Of a stretch of 64,000 nucleotides of DNA, positions 9,161 to 56,792 are shown in pieces; the first letter of the stretch is position 1, and each line of letters starts with the position of its first letter. The stretch is from Shigella phage vB_SboM_Phaginator. Below the pieces are notes generated by a model. It was not told the DNA's origin. It saw only the letters and a program-made list of their open reading frames with translations, and ran no database searches. The stretch lies in the sequence record OL615012; one strand, 5' to 3'. The position numbers were made by a program, and so were the translations under genes.

Positions 9161-10480
9161 TCACACATAAAACACATCATAACGACCACGTGTTACACCA
9201 ACATAAAGAAGCTGCTGAGCTAGTTCAGCATCTGCATAATGAATACAAGGCGTATAAATGAAAGCACGGTCTACAGACATACCCTGAGCTTTATGGAATG
9301 TTGATGCAGGAAGTGCTTTCACTTTACTAAACTGTGATTTAGCATCCCAAAAATCACTCCACGGAGCTTTTCCGCCTTTGTTCCAATTTTTATAAGTTTC
9401 TGCCGTTTTACCTAAAAACAGGTTAAACTTATATAGCTCTTCATCAGATGAAATTATTTTAATCTTTTCACGATAATATTCATCATCGCCGTAAGTTTCT
9501 ACTGTTAAATCCCAATGACGAATTAGATATTCTCCAGGAACACCACGAGCTTTAACAAAGGTTGATGTATACTCTGCTTCTATAATACGAACTAATTGTC
9601 CGTTATTAAAAATAATTTCTGATACAGGCTTTCCATCAATTTTATATGTTTTAATTAATGGTTCCTGCATTACAATAATTTCACCGACAATAAAATCTTT
9701 ATCAGTTTCAAAAATTTTTTTACGAATAATGCTATTTAACTTGTCAACAGATTTATTCGTAAATGCCATTACGCGATTTTCAAACAAATCATCTAGTGAT
9801 TTGACGATTGAAAAATAATTTACCATAAAATCGCGTAAAGCGGTATCACCAGTAAATCCACGTACTCCATGCCCGTCAACAACTTTATCATAAATCCATT
9901 TACCGTTGCGAACATCAGTAGCTACATCAATAATAGGAGCATTACTGCGTTTAACTTCAGTAAGTTCACACTGATAAAAATCTTTGTGCGTAAAGAATGG
10001 ACTGATATAAGCAGTATTTTCTCCTGGATCAACAGGTCTAATTTGCTTATTATCACCTATTCCAATTATAGTACACCAAGGTGGAATAGTTGAAAGCAGA
10101 ATTTTAAATAGCTTTCTATCATACATTGACACTTCGTCGCAGATTAATACCCTACATTTAGCTAAATCTGGTACTTCCTTCTGCTCAAAGAGGACATTTT
10201 CTTCATATGTTACCGGGTTAATTTTAAGAATACTATGAATAGTACTCGCTTCTTTCCCCGACAGTTTTGAAAGAATCTTTTTAGCTGCATGTGTAGGAGC
10301 TGCTAAAATAATACCAGTTTCACCTGTAGATATTAAAGCTTCAATGATGAACTTAGTAAGAGTAGTCTTACCAGTACCAGCAGGTCCATTAATAGTTACA
10401 TGATGTTTCTTTTCTTTAATAGCCCTCATAACAATGTTAAAGGCATTTTTCTGGCCTTCGGTCAAATCATCAAATGTCAT
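9161..10480 (-). CDS. dda: Dda DNA helicase (SF1B)
   Basis: 439-aa ORF, T4 Dda length; Walker A GPAGTGKT. Confidence 0.9.
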   Translation of the reverse strand: MTFDDLTEGQKNAFNIVMRAIKEKKHHVTINGPAGTGKTTLTKFIIEALISTGETGIILAAPTHAAKKILSKLSGKEASTIHSILKINPVTYEENVLFEQKEVPDLAKCRVLICDEVSMYDRKLFKILLSTIPPWCTIIGIGDNKQIRPVDPGENTAYISPFFTHKDFYQCELTEVKRSNAPIIDVATDVRNGKWIYDKVVDGHGVRGFTGDTALRDFMVNYFSIVKSLDDLFENRVMAFTNKSVDKLNSIIRKKIFETDKDFIVGEIIVMQEPLIKTYKIDGKPVSEIIFNNGQLVRIIEAEYTSTFVKARGVPGEYLIRHWDLTVETYGDDEYYREKIKIISSDEELYKFNLFLGKTAETYKNWNKGGKAPWSDFWDAKSQFSKVKALPASTFHKAQGMSVDRAFIYTPCIHYADAELAQQLLYVGVTRGRYDVFYV

Positions 10481-50623: not shown

Positions 50624-51592
50624 TTATTTCAGAAGAGTAACCTCAGCAATTTCTTCCCAACCGTTTTTGTCGGTCATAATAAAGTCAGCAAGATAAAGTG
50701 CAGTACGCAGTGAAACATTGCGTAAACGATTAACATTAACTTTCATCCATGATAATGCTTTATAAGTTTCTTCATCAGAAAGACCGCGCTTTTGCATCAT
50801 GTCAGTTGAAAGAATAACATCTTCAACCCTGACCATAATTTCTTCATTAGTGTGAACACCCAAATCTAAATAAACTGAGCGGGACACTAATGCTTGTAAA
50901 TGTGGAGCAAGTTTAGTACCACGGTCTAATTCGCGGTCAATGTCAACGTTTGTGATAAAAACAATCGTTCCTTTAAATTCAAACTCACGCTCAATGCCTT
51001 TTTCTTCTAAGTAAGAAGATGCAGTGCTCCAGCAGACTTTACGGGTCTCTCCAGTGTCCAGAGCAGCTTTCAGAAGATTAAGAATGTCCATATCAGAGAA
51101 AACATCCACATCATCAATCAAAAGGACAGAATTCTCTTCACGATTATTCCAAAGTTGTTCATAAAGACCGATACCGGAGATTTTACCGTTAATGCTTTTA
51201 TATTCAATGTATCCAATATCATTTGCTTTATTTAAAGCTTTATCTAAAGAATACGTTTTACCAATACCCGCCGCACCAGAGATAATTAATGAACGAATGT
51301 TTCCGTTAATAATACCATTCGTCATCATTCCCATAACATTAAATCTTTTATTAATGCGGGTTTTCATATCTTCATATGATTCTTTAACTTCTTCAACTTT
51401 TACACCATCATATGAAATGTCTGATTTGTAAACCCAAACACCGCGACGCTTACCGTCAATTTCAACAAAAACTTTACCATCTCCTTGTGCATCCACCGGA
51501 GCATTATCTGGGAACCATTCGCCTAAGAGCTCAAAAGTTCCAGAGATTTCTTTACCGAAGTAGATACCCTTATTGATAGTTACAGTTTTCAT
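50624..51592 (-). CDS. P-loop ATPase (AAA-like), 10th ORF after nrdC
   Basis: Trimmed to MKTVTINKGIYF... (322 aa); Walker A ISGAAGIGKTY, Walker B VLLIDDVDVF. Confidence 0.7.
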   Translation of the reverse strand: MKTVTINKGIYFGKEISGTFELLGEWFPDNAPVDAQGDGKVFVEIDGKRRGVWVYKSDISYDGVKVEEVKESYEDMKTRINKRFNVMGMMTNGIINGNIRSLIISGAAGIGKTYSLDKALNKANDIGYIEYKSINGKISGIGLYEQLWNNREENSVLLIDDVDVFSDMDILNLLKAALDTGETRKVCWSTASSYLEEKGIEREFEFKGTIVFITNVDIDRELDRGTKLAPHLQALVSRSVYLDLGVHTNEEIMVRVEDVILSTDMMQKRGLSDEETYKALSWMKVNVNRLRNVSLRTALYLADFIMTDKNGWEEIAEVTLLK

Positions 51593-51626
51593 TTTATTCT
51601 CCAAATCCGTATCAGTTGATAGTTGT

Positions 51627-51656
51627 ATAGTACCATAAAGCTTTATGCTTGTAAAC
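51627..51656 (-). promoter_or_regulatory. T4-type early promoter (TACTAT -10) with conserved leader
   Basis: Minus strand GTTTAC-18 nt-TGGTACTATACAACTATCAACTGATACGGATTTGGAGAATAAAATG. Confidence 0.6.
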
Positions 51657-51680
51657 TGTTTTGTGAAAAATTTTTGAAAT

Positions 51681-51705
51681 AAAAAAAGGGAGCCCGAAGG
51701 CTCCC
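51681..51705 (-). terminator. intrinsic terminator
   Basis: Minus strand GGGAGCC-UUCG-GGCUCCC followed by UUUUUUU. Confidence 0.75.
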
Positions 51706-51707
51706 TA

Positions 51708-52721
51708 TCATTTATAATAACTTCGGTGGTTTTCAAGATAGACCTTCTCAAGGAAGTCATCCCAGAAACTCATGTCTACTTTTTGCTGCATACCGTTCTT
51801 AGAAGCTTCAGTAGATGCTGCTTCTACTTGATCGACCACATCTTCCAAAAACTCTTGAACCGTTTTAAATGGATGCTTACCCAACTTCACGTCAAGAATA
51901 AATGGAGCATCTTTGAGTGGATAAACCAAGTCACCAGTTTTGTAAATTTCCAATAGTTGGAGTCCACCACGGCAAGCATGACTCAGAGCTTTCCAGTCAA
52001 TACCTTCATTGGCTTCGGCCTTACGAGCACGTTCACCATATTCAGCATCTAATTTGTTCAGTGACTGCTTAAGCTCAATAAGAGAAAGCGTTGTCTGATA
52101 TTTACGACCCAACACAGTGTAGAACGTTTGTGGGCCTGTTTTCTCATGATTATGGAACACCCATTCACAGAATTCGTTTTCTGGAAGACGATGCTTAATA
52201 TCTTCAACTTTAGTGCGACGCTGCTTAATGGAACCGTCTTCTTGGTAATCAACCCATTGCTCGGGGATTTGATTAACTACTTTCAATACATCACGTAATG
52301 CAGCCAAACGAGAACCCTTGACACCGTATTTAGAAGCTTGCTTGCGGACATATCCTAAATAGGATTTCATGTTAGTCGTATAAAAACGAGAACGGTTGTC
52401 TTGAATAAACTTCCACACATCAGGCAAATCAGATTTAACCACTAGTTCAGGTGGAGTGTGAAGCATATCCAATGCTACAGTTTCACCATCTGCTGCTAAT
52501 TTAAAGAAATATTTAAGACTGTATAGTTCATGGTCAATATCATCTTTAGTGTTTTTAGATGATGTGTTGTTAGTGTTTTTACTCATGTGCTCTTTAACGT
52601 TTCCGATAAGAATATCACGAGCAGGAGGAACAAAGATTTCTTTAAAATCTACATCAGATTCTGGAGTAGAAGTTCCATAAAGATGACTACCAAAATAGCT
52701 TTTCATTACTGTTTTCATCAT
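51708..52721 (-). CDS. predicted nucleotidyltransferase (Pol-beta superfamily-like), 11th ORF after nrdC
   Basis: 337-aa ORF; N-terminal GSHLYGTSTPESDVDF fits the G[GS]-x9-13-DxD signature. Confidence 0.6.
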   Translation of the reverse strand: MMKTVMKSYFGSHLYGTSTPESDVDFKEIFVPPARDILIGNVKEHMSKNTNNTSSKNTKDDIDHELYSLKYFFKLAADGETVALDMLHTPPELVVKSDLPDVWKFIQDNRSRFYTTNMKSYLGYVRKQASKYGVKGSRLAALRDVLKVVNQIPEQWVDYQEDGSIKQRRTKVEDIKHRLPENEFCEWVFHNHEKTGPQTFYTVLGRKYQTTLSLIELKQSLNKLDAEYGERARKAEANEGIDWKALSHACRGGLQLLEIYKTGDLVYPLKDAPFILDVKLGKHPFKTVQEFLEDVVDQVEAASTEASKNGMQQKVDMSFWDDFLEKVYLENHRSYYK

Positions 52722-53179
52722 TCAGCCTTATATTCAATAACAGGACATACTTTAGCTTTACGAGCTTTTAAAAATTCAACGATAATCGATTTCTTGGGTT
52801 GAATAGGAGGTAAACCTTTATACGCTCTATCAATATTTTCTACGTGTAAAGCATAGTCCTTTTTCCATTTATAATCTTTATATTTTTCACGCAGTTGTGC
52901 AGGAATAACAAATGAACCGATAATAAGTAAAACAACCAAAAGCGCAAGTATAAATGCTGATGGAAGAAGAGTCCATAAACTACCGAAAATAAGCCAACGT
53001 TGTAGGCTTTCTGCACAAATAATTGTTAGCCCTACGAGTATAGTACACCCAAAAATAGAAACGAAAAATGTAGGAATGGCAATAGACCAAAAATATGCGC
53101 ATAGTGTCTTAGGTCGTTGCCATTCATCGTTAAACAATTTGAATAATTTATAGTGCCAAGAGTTTTCATTAATAATCAT
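52718..53179 (-). CDS. multi-pass membrane protein (153 aa)
   Basis: Three to four hydrophobic helices. Confidence 0.6.
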   Translation of the reverse strand: MIINENSWHYKLFKLFNDEWQRPKTLCAYFWSIAIPTFFVSIFGCTILVGLTIICAESLQRWLIFGSLWTLLPSAFILALLVVLLIIGSFVIPAQLREKYKDYKWKKDYALHVENIDRAYKGLPPIQPKKSIIVEFLKARKAKVCPVIEYKAE

Positions 53180-53181
53180 AA

Positions 53182-53703
53182 TTATCCTTTCATTGAAGGC
53201 GTAACGGTTGTTAAATACTTAATCATCGCTTCAGCTTCTGATTTTGATAATGAAATTTCTCCATTGTTTTGACGAATAGAAATAAAATCCGGATGACGGT
53301 CACCACCAGCTTTTAAAACACACATATAAGTATCAGTTTCATCTTCAATATTTGAAATGATTGAAGCAGTTCCACATGAATGCGGTTTTTGATAAATCAA
53401 TACAGCTTTTCTTCCGCCATTTGACTGTTCATAAACTTTTAATACATCAAACAAATCACTTCTTTTATCAATAGCTAAAATGTTATTTTCATCTTCAATG
53501 TTAAATCCTTCGGATACTTCATAAAGTGTTACCCATAAATCACCGATGTCAATAACAGCATTTACTTTTCCACGGCTTTCAAGAGTATGACAAATTTTCT
53601 TGATTTCGTCATAACTCATTTTAATAATATCATCTCCTTGACTAAGAAAGATGTCATTTTTAAATTCAACACGAATTAAACCGCTTTCACTTGAAATAAA
53701 CAT
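53182..53703 (-). CDS. hypothetical protein (173 aa), paralog of next ORF
   Basis: C-terminus SKSEAEAMIKYLTTVTPSM parallels TKDEAIALKTYLDSVIPTM of the neighbour. Confidence 0.6.
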   Translation of the reverse strand: MFISSESGLIRVEFKNDIFLSQGDDIIKMSYDEIKKICHTLESRGKVNAVIDIGDLWVTLYEVSEGFNIEDENNILAIDKRSDLFDVLKVYEQSNGGRKAVLIYQKPHSCGTASIISNIEDETDTYMCVLKAGGDRHPDFISIRQNNGEISLSKSEAEAMIKYLTTVTPSMKG

Positions 53704-53709
53704 ATTTCC

Positions 53710-54252
53710 TCACTTTGAAATCATAGTTGGAATAACAGAATCAAGATAAGTCTTTAGTGCAATAGCTTCGTCTTTGGTAAATGTGACAATATGCGATCGA
53801 AAATCATCAATTTGACGAATAGTTAAGACATCTCCATCTTCATAACATTTTGATACGTTTAAAACAGTTTCATCATTCTGATTGCAAGCGTTAGTAATAA
53901 TAGCATTGCAATTTTTAAACCATTTTAAACTATGTTTTCTTTCATTAGAATAATAAAAATATTTAATCTTAGTTATAAAATTATCCCAATTATTAATTGA
54001 TAAGCATATTGACTCGCTTTCAATATTAAATCCTGGGCATAAAGAATAGAAATGAATTTTATGCTCATCATTAATGCTTACAATTTTATCAGTATAAGAA
54101 TTTTCAATTTGGGTTAAACGAACAATTTCGTTAGGCGTAAAATATAGCATATCGTCTTCTTGTGTCAAACGATACATATTATTTACTTTTTCTATAGCCA
54201 ATTCACCAAAAAGTGAACTAACTTCTAATACTAATCGTTTCGCCTCACTCAT
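53710..54252 (-). CDS. hypothetical protein (~180 aa), paralog of previous ORF
   Basis: ORF-track ORF trimmed from GTG to adjacent ATG; shared internal GFNIE and C-terminal motifs. Confidence 0.6.
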   Translation of the reverse strand: MSEAKRLVLEVSSLFGELAIEKVNNMYRLTQEDDMLYFTPNEIVRLTQIENSYTDKIVSINDEHKIHFYSLCPGFNIESESICLSINNWDNFITKIKYFYYSNERKHSLKWFKNCNAIITNACNQNDETVLNVSKCYEDGDVLTIRQIDDFRSHIVTFTKDEAIALKTYLDSVIPTMISK

Positions 54253-54359
54253 CACTGTATACTCCTCTGAATCATATCAATAATGTTGTTCACCAGATTA
54301 TAAGTAAACATTGGGTAATTATATTGAATCATCACATACACAACAAACAAAATTTTCAT
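54252..54359 (-). CDS. small hydrophobic peptide (35 aa)
   Basis: Hand-translated MKILFVVYVMIQYNYPMFTYNLVNNIIDMIQRSIQ; stop overlaps the next start. Confidence 0.3.
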   Translation of the reverse strand: MKILFVVYVMIQYNYPMFTYNLVNNIIDMIQRSIQ

Positions 54360-54386
54360 TCTCTTCTCCTTGACAGTTGACAAGAT

Positions 54387-54416
54387 TACTATACCATAAC
54401 CTTGCCAACTTGTAAA
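54387..54416 (-). promoter_or_regulatory. T4-type early promoter
   Basis: Minus strand GTTTAC-18 nt-TGGTATAGT. Confidence 0.6.
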
Positions 54417-54419
54417 CCA

Positions 54420-54593
54420 TTAAATGACGTTTTCAATAAAATTCTGAAGCTTTGTGTGAGCATCAACCATGATTTTCATTTCTTCCTTTGCGAAAGCTGT
54501 ACCTCTTTCCCGAGCAGAATACTCATAGTCAGAAACTGCATTAGCATATTCTTCAATTAGTTTCATTAAAAACATCTGCTTTTCAGTTTTCAT
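54420..54593 (-). CDS. small hypothetical protein (57 aa)
   Basis: Hand-translated MKTEKQMFLMKLIEEYANAVSDYEYSARERGTAFAKEEMKIMVDAHTKLQNFIENVI; overlaps upstream stop. Confidence 0.4.
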   Translation of the reverse strand: MKTEKQMFLMKLIEEYANAVSDYEYSARERGTAFAKEEMKIMVDAHTKLQNFIENVI

Positions 54594-54777
54594 TATTCCA
54601 CCTAATCATTTCAAGATATTGAACTAACTTAGCTTTAGATTTATCCAAATCCTTTTTAGCTGCTTCTATACCGTCGTATGAATATCCTTCACAATGCTCA
54701 ACTGCTAATTGATATGAATCTATTTCAATATCACGTGCTAATTTAATGATTTTTTCAAACTGTTCGCGTGTTAGCAT
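54583..54777 (-). CDS. hypothetical protein (64 aa)
   Basis: ORF-track ORF. Confidence 0.5.
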   Translation of the reverse strand: MLTREQFEKIIKLARDIEIDSYQLAVEHCEGYSYDGIEAAKKDLDKSKAKLVQYLEMIRWNNEN

Positions 54778-54779
54778 AC

Positions 54780-55019
54780 TTAAACTCTCGTATTATGATC
54801 GATAATTTCATCAAGAAACATATCTAACGCTTCTAAAGCATTATCAACTTTAGCTTCAAGTTCATCAATACCTTTATTTGCAATGCCTGACGAAAACCAA
54901 GCAAAGTCACTAAGTTCCTCATCTGCTTTACGAATTGAAGCCACTAATTCCTTGATTTTATCTGCTTGCTCTATACTAATCATTATTCCACCACATATGA
55001 AAGAGAGAATATTGCACAC
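54780..55019 (-). CDS. hypothetical acidic protein (up to 79 aa)
   Basis: ORF-track ORF; true start probably an internal Met ([13 protein letters not shown]...). Confidence 0.5.
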
Positions 55020-55171
55020 GCCATGTGAGTTGCAACTTCATCACACATATTATAACGTTTCTTAAGAAGTTCTACAAGTTCTTCACTAGTAACTTCATCC
55101 ATGTTGACGAAAAAATCACCATTAATGATGACGTAGATATTTCCTTCTTGATTGAGTGCTTCAATTTTCAT
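54983..55171 (-). CDS. hypothetical protein (62 aa)
   Basis: Trimmed to [14 protein letters not shown]... after GAGGAG; the track N-terminus is translated promoter. Confidence 0.55.
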
Positions 55172-55199
55172 GATGTTCTCCTCTTTATCCGATGGTTGT

Positions 55200-55229
55200 A
55201 TAGTACCACGGCTCAAACAGAAAGTAAAC
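55200..55229 (-). promoter_or_regulatory. T4-type early promoter (TACTAT -10)
   Basis: Minus strand GTTTAC-18 nt-TGGTACTATACAACCATCGG. Confidence 0.6.
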
Positions 55230-56210: not shown

Positions 56211-56792
56211 CTAACCGAGCTTTTTAGTTAATTCATTCCAATGTTTTCTGCACAAAGAAACATAAATTTCATCACCAATACAGATTTGATTACCTTCTTT
56301 AACTGGTGTTCCATCTTCCATTAATCGAGCTGTCATAATCGCTTTTTTGCCGCAATGACAGACTGCTTTCAGTTCAATAAGTTTATCTGCAATCGCTAAA
56401 AGTTCTTTAGAACCTTCAAACAATTTTCCAGCGAAATCAGTCCTTAATCCATAAGCCATAACAGGAACATTATATGTATCAACAATTCGGCTCAATTGAT
56501 GCACTTGTTCAGTTTTTAAAAACTGAGCTTCATCTACAAATACGCAATGAATATCTTTTTGTGCTTCGGCCCATTTATAGAATTCGAAAATGTCCATATC
56601 ATCTGTAATAATATTCGCTTCCTGCTTAATTCCAATGCGAGAAACGACTTCACAGACAGAATCGCGAGTATCAATAGCAGGCTTAAGAACTAATACACCC
56701 ATTCCACGTTCTTTATAATTATGTGCAGCAGTCAAAAGAGAAGCAGATTTTCCAGCATTCATTGCTGCATAAGTAAAAATTAAACTCGCCAT
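56211..56792 (-). CDS. tk: thymidine kinase
   Basis: 193-aa ORF, T4 Tk length; P-loop AAMNAGKS and Cys cluster CHCGKK...C. Confidence 0.95.
   Translation of the reverse strand: MASLIFTYAAMNAGKSASLLTAAHNYKERGMGVLVLKPAIDTRDSVCEVVSRIGIKQEANIITDDMDIFEFYKWAEAQKDIHCVFVDEAQFLKTEQVHQLSRIVDTYNVPVMAYGLRTDFAGKLFEGSKELLAIADKLIELKAVCHCGKKAIMTARLMEDGTPVKEGNQICIGDEIYVSLCRKHWNELTKKLG

What the first reader, a model, noticed from the sequence alone, without database searches (positions are those of the whole stretch)
53182..54252. Tandem paralogs of ~175 aa where T4 carries the mobD homing endonuclease region
The two ORFs share length, an internal (P/E)GFNIE(D/S) motif and a near-identical C-terminal segment (SKSEAEAMIKYLTTVTPSM versus TKDEAIALKTYLDSVIPTM). 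They follow a multi-pass membrane protein and precede a run of very small ORFs. No GIY-YIG or HNH endonuclease ORF is present in this region.
Basis: partly seen in the sequence, partly recalled or inferred. Interest (0 to 1): 0.4.

Follow-up and report, generated by a model that had tools for sequence, protein, structure and literature searches.

The report
MobD.1 paralog pair in T4-like phage
Two neighbouring early genes of a T4-like phage are real, anciently diverged paralogs of the catalogued but uncharacterised MobD.1 family; one is T4's own mobD.1, and the other, with the adjacent membrane-protein gene, is the common allele that T4's mobD homing-endonuclease cassette has replaced, so the finding is real but ordinary.

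Summary
ORFs 53182-53703(-) (A173) and 53710-54252/54255(-) (B181) align over their full length (27% identity, E 1e-12). Both hit Pfam T4_y05I_N and T4_y05I_C above threshold.

B181 is the ortholog of T4 MobD.1, which T4 also has. Only A173 and the membrane-protein gene M153 (52718-53179) occupy the T4 mobD slot. T4 keeps the first 19 nt of A173 and then diverges into mobD. A173+M153 occurs in about 422 phage records at 90-100% identity. T4-type mobD occurs in 54, and 47 of them are at least 99% identical. It is 99.7-100% identical between T4 and G28, whose flanks are 89-95% identical. This is the usual mark of homing-endonuclease spread.

Function is unproven, and the acidic pI (4.2-5.1) argues against plain nucleic-acid binding. 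The family and the arrangement are already catalogued. Interest is low to moderate.

The parts
54388..54416 (-). Early-type sigma-70 promoter (TTTACA-17-TATAGT, with TG) upstream of mobD.2 and mobD.1
   Evidence: Consensus scan scores 10 of 12 with an extended -10. The sequence is conserved in T4. The equivalent site is annotated 'predicted early promoter' in phage fPS-90. Activity was not tested.
54252..54359 (-). mobD.2 ortholog, a 35-aa hydrophobic peptide and the first ORF of the operon
   Evidence: ORF list and sequence, PP01 and T4 annotation. Its stop overlaps the ATG of the next gene (TGATG). The ortholog in contig L014 carries Pfam Phage_T4_Y05J.
53710..54252 (-). B181: ortholog of T4 MobD.1 (Y05I). 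Pfam N domain about 53944-54234, C domain about 53722-53931
   Evidence: Synteny and DNA alignment with T4 and PP01. Pfam T4_y05I_N E 7e-41 and T4_y05I_C E 1e-20. AlphaFold model pLDDT 87.5. dN/dS median 0.22.
53182..53703 (-). A173: second, divergent paralog of the MobD.1 family, absent from T4. Pfam N domain about 53419-53700, C domain about 53191-53400
   Evidence: BLASTP against B181 E 1e-12. Pfam E 2e-33 and 4e-23. Together with M153 it is found in about 422 phage records. dN/dS median 0.12. It forms a separate clade in the neighbour-joining tree.
53685..53703 (-). First 19 nt of A173 (ATGTTTATTTCAAGTG(A/G)AA), retained in T4 as a remnant at the left edge of the mobD cassette
   Evidence: Alignment with T4. 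T4's 19 nt are identical to the majority A173 allele. In T4 they open a 23-codon remnant ORF.
52718..53179 (-). M153: membrane protein (phrog_944), coupled to A173 (TAATTATG) and to nrdC.11 (ATGA overlap). Absent from T4
   Evidence: PHROG hit E 8e-50. Homologs sit in the same position in Gaprivervirus (E 1e-22), Marfavirus (E 1e-7) and Gelderlandvirus (E 4e-26). dN/dS median 0.14.
51708..52721 (-). nrdC.11 ortholog: RlaP-family (PF10127) nucleotidyltransferase, the last gene of the operon
   Evidence: Pfam RlaP 44.6 bits against a cut-off of 23. phrog_388 E 6e-137. T4 NrdC.11 is named as an RlaP member in PMC12776372.
51687..51706 (-). Intrinsic terminator-like hairpin (8-bp stem with 6 GC pairs, then a T run) directly after nrdC.11
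   Evidence: Terminator scan. A terminator is annotated at the same place in phage G28.

Best explanation
The window comes from a Tequatrovirus (T4-like phage). The two ORFs are anciently diverged paralogs of the MobD.1 family (T4 Y05I; Pfam T4_y05I_N plus T4_y05I_C).

They lie in one tightly coupled early operon: promoter, mobD.2, MobD.1 (B181), A173, membrane protein M153, the RlaP-type nucleotidyltransferase NrdC.11, terminator.

Shown:
- B181 is T4's own mobD.1 ortholog.
- A173 and M153 are the majority allele of the slot. In T4 and about 50 other phages this slot holds a nearly invariant cassette of about 945 nt carrying the HNH homing endonuclease gene mobD. The cassette replaced A173 and M153 and left 19 nt of A173 behind.
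- All three genes are under purifying selection.

Shown on a confident model:
- Each family protein has three beta-beta-beta-beta-alpha units. The first two form a PUR/Whirly-type (PC4-like 'type I') domain.

Inferred:
- The C-terminal unit is a third PUR-like repeat that pairs with the same unit of a second molecule, as repeat III of Pur-alpha does. It would give homodimers, or B181/A173 heterodimers.
- The dimer binds single-stranded nucleic acid, most likely RNA, and works with the co-transcribed RlaP RNA-repair enzyme and the membrane protein as a dispensable early accessory module.

My confidence is about 0.9 for the identity, evolution and locus parts, about 0.75 for the fold assignment, about 0.5 for dimerisation through the C-terminal unit, and about 0.35 for RNA or ssDNA binding as the activity.
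For: Paralogy: BLASTP E 1e-12. Both Pfam domains are hit above threshold in both proteins, and both hit phrog_1502.

Orthology and replacement:
- PP01 and T4 annotation.
- DNA alignment with the 19-nt remnant.
- 422 records carry A173+M153 at 90-100% identity. 54 carry T4-type mobD, 47 of them at 99% or more.
- G28 against T4: 2 mismatches between G28 locus positions 1400 and 2343, a stretch covering the nrdC.11 start, mobD and the spacer. The flanks are 94.8% and 89.0% identical.

Ancient divergence: A173 and its relatives form a clade outside the MobD.1 orthologs. Mosigvirus and Gaprivervirus have a single MobD.1, then the membrane protein, then the nucleotidyltransferase.

Selection: dN/dS 0.12, 0.22 and 0.14.

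Fold:
- The B181 model has pLDDT 87.5 with bbbba, bbbba, bbbbba units.
- The weaker A173 model gives the same top hit.

C-terminal unit as a repeat:
- hhalign of repeat 1 against the C domain gives E 6.7e-5.
- The C domain exists alone as 68-87-aa proteins in other genera. This resembles single-repeat PC4-like proteins, which are obligate dimers (PMC7549692).

Interchangeability: some phages carry only an A173-type gene or a MobD.1-N/A173-C chimera.

Operon: promoter, overlapping stops and starts, terminator.

RNA link: NrdC.11 is an RlaP family member. RlaP enzymes add 1-2 nucleotides to the 3' ends of damaged RNA (PMC12776372).
Against: - No experiment exists on any family member. Literature searches for mobD.1 and y05I gave nothing functional.
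- The proteins are acidic, with pI 4.2-5.1 and net charge -7 to -20 across the family. The conserved motifs (Q-E-D-D, GFNIExE, IRQ, FTKxEA) contain few basic residues. This is atypical for nucleic-acid binders.
- No sequence-level match to PurA or Whirly Pfam models, or to any PDB sequence. The PUR relationship rests on a predicted structure.
- Dimerisation could not be modelled.
- T4 lacks A173 and M153, and a T4 deletion spanning nrdC.11 to mobD.3 is viable (PMC9825161). The module is therefore dispensable in the laboratory.
- The link to RlaP is guilt by association in genomes that are syntenic anyway.
Confidence: 0.55

Rival explanations
1. The proteins use the PC4-like scaffold for protein binding, not nucleic-acid binding. 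They would be acidic early proteins that bind, or mimic nucleic acid towards, a host or phage protein. Candidates are a host nucleic-acid-binding or defence protein, the basic cytoplasmic tail of M153, or NrdC.11. This would be a host-takeover or counter-defence role, and the two paralogs would address different targets.
For: - pI 4.2-5.1 and net charge -7 to -20 in all family members examined.
- The conserved motifs are rich in acidic residues.
- A y05I C-domain gene sits directly next to the basic (pI 9.4) M153-type membrane-protein gene in five genera.
- The genes are early, non-essential and variable in copy number, as accessory and counter-defence genes typically are.
Against: - The strongest fold matches (Pur-alpha, Whirly, MRP1/2, PC4) are all single-stranded nucleic-acid binders.
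- No match to PADLOC models, and no known anti-defence family was matched.
- No partner has been identified.
- T4 keeps MobD.1 without M153, so M153 cannot be an obligatory partner.
Confidence: 0.3
2. They are transcription factors, as the Pfam name ('y05I-like putative transcription factor') suggests. They would bind phage or host promoter DNA and regulate early or middle gene expression.
For: - Pfam family names.
- Fold neighbours Pur-alpha, Whirly p24/PBF-2 and PC4 were first described as transcription regulators (PMC7549692).
- The genes are expressed early.
Against: - The label appears to derive from fold resemblance only.
- There is no helix-turn-helix or other dsDNA-binding motif, and the proteins are acidic.
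- The T4 transcription programme is well accounted for by AsiA, MotA, gp33, gp55 and related factors (established knowledge).
- The region is deletable.
- No literature was found on this point.
Confidence: 0.08
3. A173 is a recent, redundant tandem duplicate of mobD.1 that is drifting towards loss. Alternatively, the similarity is chance or low-complexity.
For: - The two genes are adjacent and of similar length.
- Some phages carry only one copy or a chimera.
- Truncated copies exist in fPS-90 and ECO4.
Against: - Only 27% identity, although the similarity itself is significant (E 1e-12).
- A173 falls outside the clade of MobD.1 orthologs from four genera.
- dN/dS is 0.12, the lowest of the three genes.
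- A173 is intact in about 420 genomes.
Confidence: 0.03

Closest known systems
T4 MobD.1 (Y05I; Pfam T4_y05I_N PF24449 plus T4_y05I_C PF24448; phrog_1502)
   Same: B181 is its ortholog, with the same position and roughly 93% DNA identity. A173 has the same two-domain architecture and matches both Pfam models above threshold.
   Different: A173 is only 27% identical to B181 and forms its own clade. It is absent from T4. No member of the family has a tested function.
Eukaryotic Pur-alpha (three PUR repeats: I-II form an intramolecular domain, III dimerises)
   Different: - No detectable sequence similarity.
- The phage proteins are much more acidic.
- The C-terminal unit has five strands in the model.
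- Dimerisation and nucleic-acid binding are untested.
Whirly proteins (p24/PBF-2, StWhy2) and trypanosome MRP1/MRP2
   Different: Whirly and MRP proteins are basic, form tetramers through an extra C-terminal helix, and have no third repeat. There is no sequence match.
Single-repeat PC4-like proteins (Borrelia Bpur, PC4, phage T5 PC4-like protein)
   Different: There is no sequence relationship. Which unit of the model gives these matches is not known from the output.
Free-standing homing endonuclease loci of T4 (mobD between nrdC.11 and mobD.1; PMC2988022)
   Same: The window shows the endonuclease-free allele of exactly this site. The T4-type cassette is near-identical across diverged backgrounds.
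   Different: The published table gives the insertion site as nrdC.11/mobD.1 and the target as unknown. Here the endonuclease-free allele is not an empty intergenic site. It holds two functional genes of about 960 nt that the cassette displaces.

Membership tests
Pfam T4_y05I family (MobD.1-like) | Match to PF24449 (N domain) above the gathering score | tested here: met
   A173 scores 115.2 bits and B181 139.4 bits, against a cut-off of 24.9.
Pfam T4_y05I family (MobD.1-like) | Match to PF24448 (C domain) above the gathering score | tested here: met
   A173 scores 81.9 bits and B181 74.3 bits, against a cut-off of 27.
PUR family (Pur-alpha, PurA Pfam / PUR repeats) | Sequence match to PUR repeat or PurA models | tested here: not met
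   No PurA hit at E up to 1 in Pfam. phmmer and the family profile find no Pur-alpha among PDB sequences.
PUR family (Pur-alpha, PurA Pfam / PUR repeats) | bbbba repeats I and II packed into one intramolecular domain | tested here: met
PUR family (Pur-alpha, PurA Pfam / PUR repeats) | A third repeat that dimerises with the third repeat of a second molecule | tested here: inconclusive
PUR family (Pur-alpha, PurA Pfam / PUR repeats) | Binding of single-stranded purine-rich DNA or RNA | not testable with these tools
   This needs a binding assay. The acidic pI counsels caution.
PC4-like fold class (Janowski and Niessing 2020) | b-b-b-b-a-linker-b-b-b-b-a topology forming a pseudo-symmetric domain | tested here: met
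Whirly family | Sequence match to the Whirly Pfam model, and tetramer formation | tested here: not met
HNH or GIY-YIG free-standing homing endonuclease at this locus | An endonuclease ORF between nrdC.11 and mobD.1 | tested here: not met
   tblastn of T4 MobD against the window gives a best E of 5.8. Every CDS annotated in this stretch of the 99.1%-identical phage PP01 has a non-endonuclease assignment. GIY-YIG was not searched for directly.
RlaP nucleotidyltransferase (neighbour gene nrdC.11) | Match to PF10127 above the gathering score | tested here: met
   44.6 bits against a cut-off of 23. T4 NrdC.11 is placed in RlaP cluster 5 by PMC12776372.

The most novel reading that the evidence does not exclude
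The MobD.1 family would be the first non-eukaryotic group with the full Pur-alpha architecture: a type I PC4-like domain plus a dimerising third repeat. The two Tequatrovirus paralogs would form heterodimers that bind damaged RNA or tRNA and hand it to the co-transcribed RlaP nucleotidyltransferase NrdC.11, at a membrane site set by M153. That would make the operon a previously unrecognised phage RNA-repair or counter-defence module. T4 itself would have half lost it to the mobD homing endonuclease.
Probability: 0.12. Interest if true: 0.6.

Novelty: already known. Interest (0 to 1): 0.27.

Why it matters
The practical value is mostly in cleaning up annotation. RefSeq and other records label these genes 'molybdopterin-guanine dinucleotide biosynthesis protein MobD', which is a name-collision error. 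They are MobD.1-family proteins with a PUR/Whirly-like fold.

The locus is also a clear example of a free-standing homing endonuclease displacing two functional genes, rather than occupying an empty intergenic site. It therefore defines what the 'mobD-minus' allele is, and the MobD target is still listed as unknown (PMC2988022). The sequence MobD cuts should lie in or next to window 52722-53684.

If the Pur-alpha-like architecture and the link to the RlaP enzyme were confirmed, the family would give a simple phage model for PC4-like proteins. It would also be a candidate accessory of phage RNA repair. That part remains inference.

Tried and rejected
- I looked for further paralogs in the window and found none (phmmer against all six-frame ORFs).
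- I tested whether the nrdC.8/nrdC.7-type gene pair further downstream repeats the A173/M153 pair. There was no significant similarity, so I rejected the idea.
- I tested whether the extra 173-180-aa genes between the membrane protein and the nucleotidyltransferase in Marfavirus and Gelderlandvirus belong to the family. hhalign probability was below 1%, so they do not.
- Sequence searches against PDB gave no meaningful hit, with either the single protein or the family profile.
- NCBIfam and PADLOC gave no hits for any of the four operon proteins.
- Literature searches for 'mobD.1' and 'y05I' found only the insertion-site table.
- The word-indexed protein search found only 12 close relatives. 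The exhaustive profile search found 23 representatives with E up to 0.001; the strong and full-length ones are T4-like phage proteins, and a few long (682-1354 aa) weak hits were not examined. The family is therefore small.
- The afdb50 fold library was unavailable. BFVD returned essentially only family members.
- Repeat 2 showed no profile similarity to repeat 1 or to the C domain.

Full report
**What the window is.** All genes around the finding lie on the minus strand, and the region is 97-99.5% identical to hundreds of Tequatrovirus genomes. The order matches T4 and PP01. It runs tk (56211-56792), rI.1, rI, rI.-1, then the small ORFs mobD.5 to mobD.2 (54252-55216), then the two ORFs of the finding. 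After these come a membrane protein (52718-53179), nrdC.11 (51708-52721) and nrdC.10.

**Checking the observation.** The coordinates are exact.
- A173 (53182-53703) and B181 (53710-54255 from GTG, or more plausibly 54252 from the ATG overlapping the mobD.2 stop) align over their whole length. Identity is 27%, positives 52%, E 1e-12.
- Both match the two Pfam models T4_y05I_N and T4_y05I_C far above the gathering scores, and both match phrog_1502.
- GFNIE is invariant in the closest relatives, with slight variants in more distant full-length members.
- The C-terminal stretches share 9 of 19 residues. That is not 'near-identical', but they are the most conserved motif of the family, FTKxEAxALxxYLxxVIPTM.
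- No third copy exists in the 64 kb, and no MobD-like sequence either (tblastn best E 5.8).

**Relation to T4.**
- B181 is the ortholog of T4 mobD.1, which T4 has as well.
- In the alignment with T4, identity runs through the mobD.1 stop, the shared ribosome-binding site and the first 19 nt of A173 (ATGTTTATTTCAAGTGGAA in T4 and in the majority A173 allele). It then collapses and resumes about 12 nt before the nrdC.11 start.
- T4 thus keeps a remnant of A173. This opens a 23-codon ORF, followed by mobD.
- The segment A173+M153 (about 52722-53684) and the mobD cassette are therefore alternative alleles of one slot.

**Which allele is common, and how mobD spreads.**
- A173+M153 is found at 80% coverage or more in 422 phage records, with identities spread from 90 to 100%.
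- T4-type mobD is found in only 54 records, and 47 of them are at least 99% identical.
- In phage G28, mobD sits in the same place. Against T4, only 2 mismatches fall between G28 locus positions 1400 and 2343, a stretch spanning the first 100 nt or so of nrdC.11, mobD and the spacer with the A173 remnant. The rest of nrdC.11 is 94.8% identical and mobD.1 is 89.0% identical.
- This is the expected footprint of recent lateral spread of a free-standing homing endonuclease with a short co-conversion tract.
- The published table lists mobD as inserted between nrdC.11 and mobD.1, with target unknown (PMC2988022).
- The inference that MobD cuts window-type DNA in or beside this segment is not tested.

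**Age and constraint of the paralogs.**
- Mosigvirus ST0 and Gaprivervirus VR7 carry a single MobD.1 ortholog (48% and 35% identical to B181, 30% and 28% to A173). In both it is followed by an M153 homolog and the nucleotidyltransferase.
- In a neighbour-joining tree, A173 and its relatives (P0001, P0007, P0010) form a clade outside all MobD.1 orthologs.
- The split is therefore old, or A173 evolved fast after duplication, or it was acquired from an unsampled relative. It is not a recent tandem copy.
- Pairwise dN/dS medians are 0.12 (A173), 0.22 (MobD.1) and 0.14 (M153), so all three are maintained by selection.
- Copy number is nevertheless flexible. One metagenomic contig has only an A173-type gene. 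Six contigs carry a single chimera with the MobD.1 N-half and the A173 C-half. T4-type phages have MobD.1 only. Split or truncated copies occur in fPS-90 and ECO4.
- This pattern suggests overlapping functions.

**The family is small.** An exhaustive profile search of 1.84 billion representative proteins found only 23 with E up to 0.001. Several are stand-alone C-domain proteins of 74-83 aa. The strong and full-length hits, and the members located in the phage collection, are from Straboviridae and relatives; a few long weak hits were not examined. In Marfavirus, Winklervirus and Gelderlandvirus a C-domain-only gene is followed directly by a gene the size of the M153 membrane-protein gene. Homology to M153 was confirmed for Marfavirus and Gelderlandvirus but not tested for Winklervirus. 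In Tegunavirus another gene intervenes. In all four genera the nrdC.11-type nucleotidyltransferase lies further downstream.

**Structure.**
- With six sequences, the A173 model was mediocre (pLDDT 63.5).
- With 16 sequences, the B181 model was good (pLDDT 87.5, pTM 0.67).
- The order of elements is bbbba, bbbba, then bbbbba.
- The A173 model gave the same top hit.
- These all belong to the PC4-like fold class reviewed in PMC7549692. This is presumably the source of Pfam's 'putative transcription factor' label.
- Profile comparison of repeat 1 with the C domain gives E 6.7e-5 and probability 64%. It aligns the strand-Q-turn-strand-(T/S)xxE-helix parts. Repeat 2 shows no such similarity.
- The review states that Pur-alpha is the only reported protein with both a type I and a type II PC4-like domain. 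The MobD.1 family would be a second case if the C-terminal unit dimerises.
- That step is inferred, as I could not run a multimer prediction.

**Context.**
- A strong early-type promoter (TTTACA-17-TATAGT with TG, 54416-54388) precedes mobD.2. The site is annotated as an early promoter in fPS-90.
- The genes mobD.2, mobD.1, A173, M153 and nrdC.11 overlap or abut.
- A GC-rich hairpin with a T run follows nrdC.11 (51706-51687).
- NrdC.11 passes the Pfam RlaP threshold. RlaP enzymes add one or two nucleotides to the 3' ends of damaged RNAs and help restore tRNA function, and T4 NrdC.11 is named as a member (PMC12776372).
- A T4 deletion from nrdC.11 to mobD.3 is viable (PMC9825161), so the module is accessory.

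**How it most likely works.** I commit to the following, with stated uncertainty. The proteins are dimeric PUR/Whirly-like adaptors made early in infection. The most likely ligand is single-stranded nucleic acid, probably RNA. This follows from the fold neighbours and the RlaP partner. My probability for that activity is only about 0.35. The reason is that the whole family is acidic (pI 4.2-5.1, net charge -7 to -20) and the conserved motifs are poor in basic residues. The main rival (about 0.3) is that the scaffold binds a protein, either a host factor or the basic tail of M153. SsgA-like proteins and some chaperones and immunity proteins with related folds do this. A role as a classical transcription factor is unlikely, and recent duplication or chance similarity is excluded.

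**Novelty and verdict.** The family, its two domains and this exact arrangement are already in Pfam, PHROGs, UniProt names and more than 400 GenBank genomes. I therefore rate it 'already known' as a kind, with unknown function. The modest added points are:
- The mobD-free allele holds two selected genes.
- T4 carries a 19-nt scar of A173.
- The fold is Pur-alpha-like with three units.
- Many database records mislabel these genes as molybdopterin-guanine dinucleotide biosynthesis protein MobD.

Interest: 0.27.

Noticed in passing
window 54420-54593(-), 54583-54777(-), 54780-54983(-): Three of the 'very small ORFs' just upstream (T4 mobD.2a, mobD.3, mobD.4 equivalents) all match Pfam DUF7438 (E 3e-15 to 1.5e-17). 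They form a second tandem paralog array beside the MobD.1 pair. In related contigs a DUF7438 gene also lies upstream of tk.
   Followed up: partly
L002 (T4) about 9210-9283, equivalent to window 53685-53703: Between mobD.1 and mobD, T4 has a 23-codon remnant ORF (MFISSGTDMCYKCKAKLNETKNQ*). Its first six codons are the start of A173. The CxxC stretch after them may belong to the original 5' end of the endonuclease cassette.
   Followed up: partly
L015-L017 (metagenome contigs), protein P0011: A single 179-aa gene replaces the pair. Its N-half is MobD.1-like and its C-half A173-like, as expected from unequal recombination between the paralogs. It was seen on six contigs. P0029 is a fusion of the MobD.1 N-terminus to the nrdC.11 C-terminus, which looks like a deletion.
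   Followed up: partly
L010 (phage ECp13) 1497-1970, equivalent to window 52718-53179: The central part of the M153 gene is a very divergent allele (dN 0.37, dS above 1 against all others). Its last 90 nt or so and the neighbouring A173 are nearly identical to other phages. This indicates mosaic recombination inside the membrane-protein gene.
   Followed up: no
L008 (Yersinia phage fPS-90) 1789-2333; phage ECO4 proteins in BFVD: MobD.1 is annotated as split or truncated pieces (102 aa and 43 aa in fPS-90; N-domain-only proteins of 105 and 119 aa in ECO4). Some phages apparently carry disrupted copies.
   Followed up: no
RefSeq annotations of the homologous region (e.g. NC_054930, NC_019399, NC_054916, NC_000866 mobD.4): MobD.1 and several small mobD.x ORFs are named 'molybdopterin-guanine dinucleotide biosynthesis protein MobD'. 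rI.-1 is named 'starvation-inducible transcriptional regulator', and nrdC.11 is sometimes named 'thioredoxin'. These look like name-propagation errors.
   Followed up: no
window 54141-54168(-), inside B181: A near-consensus sigma-70 site (TTGACA-16-TATATT with TG, 11 of 12) lies within the mobD.1 coding sequence and is largely conserved in T4. Separately, the 3' end of mobD.1 contains GAAGCTATT-12 nt-TATCTT. This could be the MotA-type middle promoter that the literature places upstream of mobD in T4, and here it would serve A173.
   Followed up: no
window 50624-51760(-): The listed 378-aa ORF overlaps the nrdC.11 terminator. The real nrdC.10 gene probably starts downstream of it (T4 nrdC.10 is 325 aa). 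The protein shows weak AAA/STAND-type NTPase matches (E 7e-5 to 1e-3, all below the Pfam thresholds).
   Followed up: no
L014 1282-1536; L015 2733-2999; G28 L018 2873-3139: In some Tequatrovirus backgrounds an 84-88-aa 'Phage_tudor' (PF24144) gene sits directly upstream of the MobD.1-family gene, together with or in place of mobD.2. This adds another variable element to the operon.
   Followed up: no
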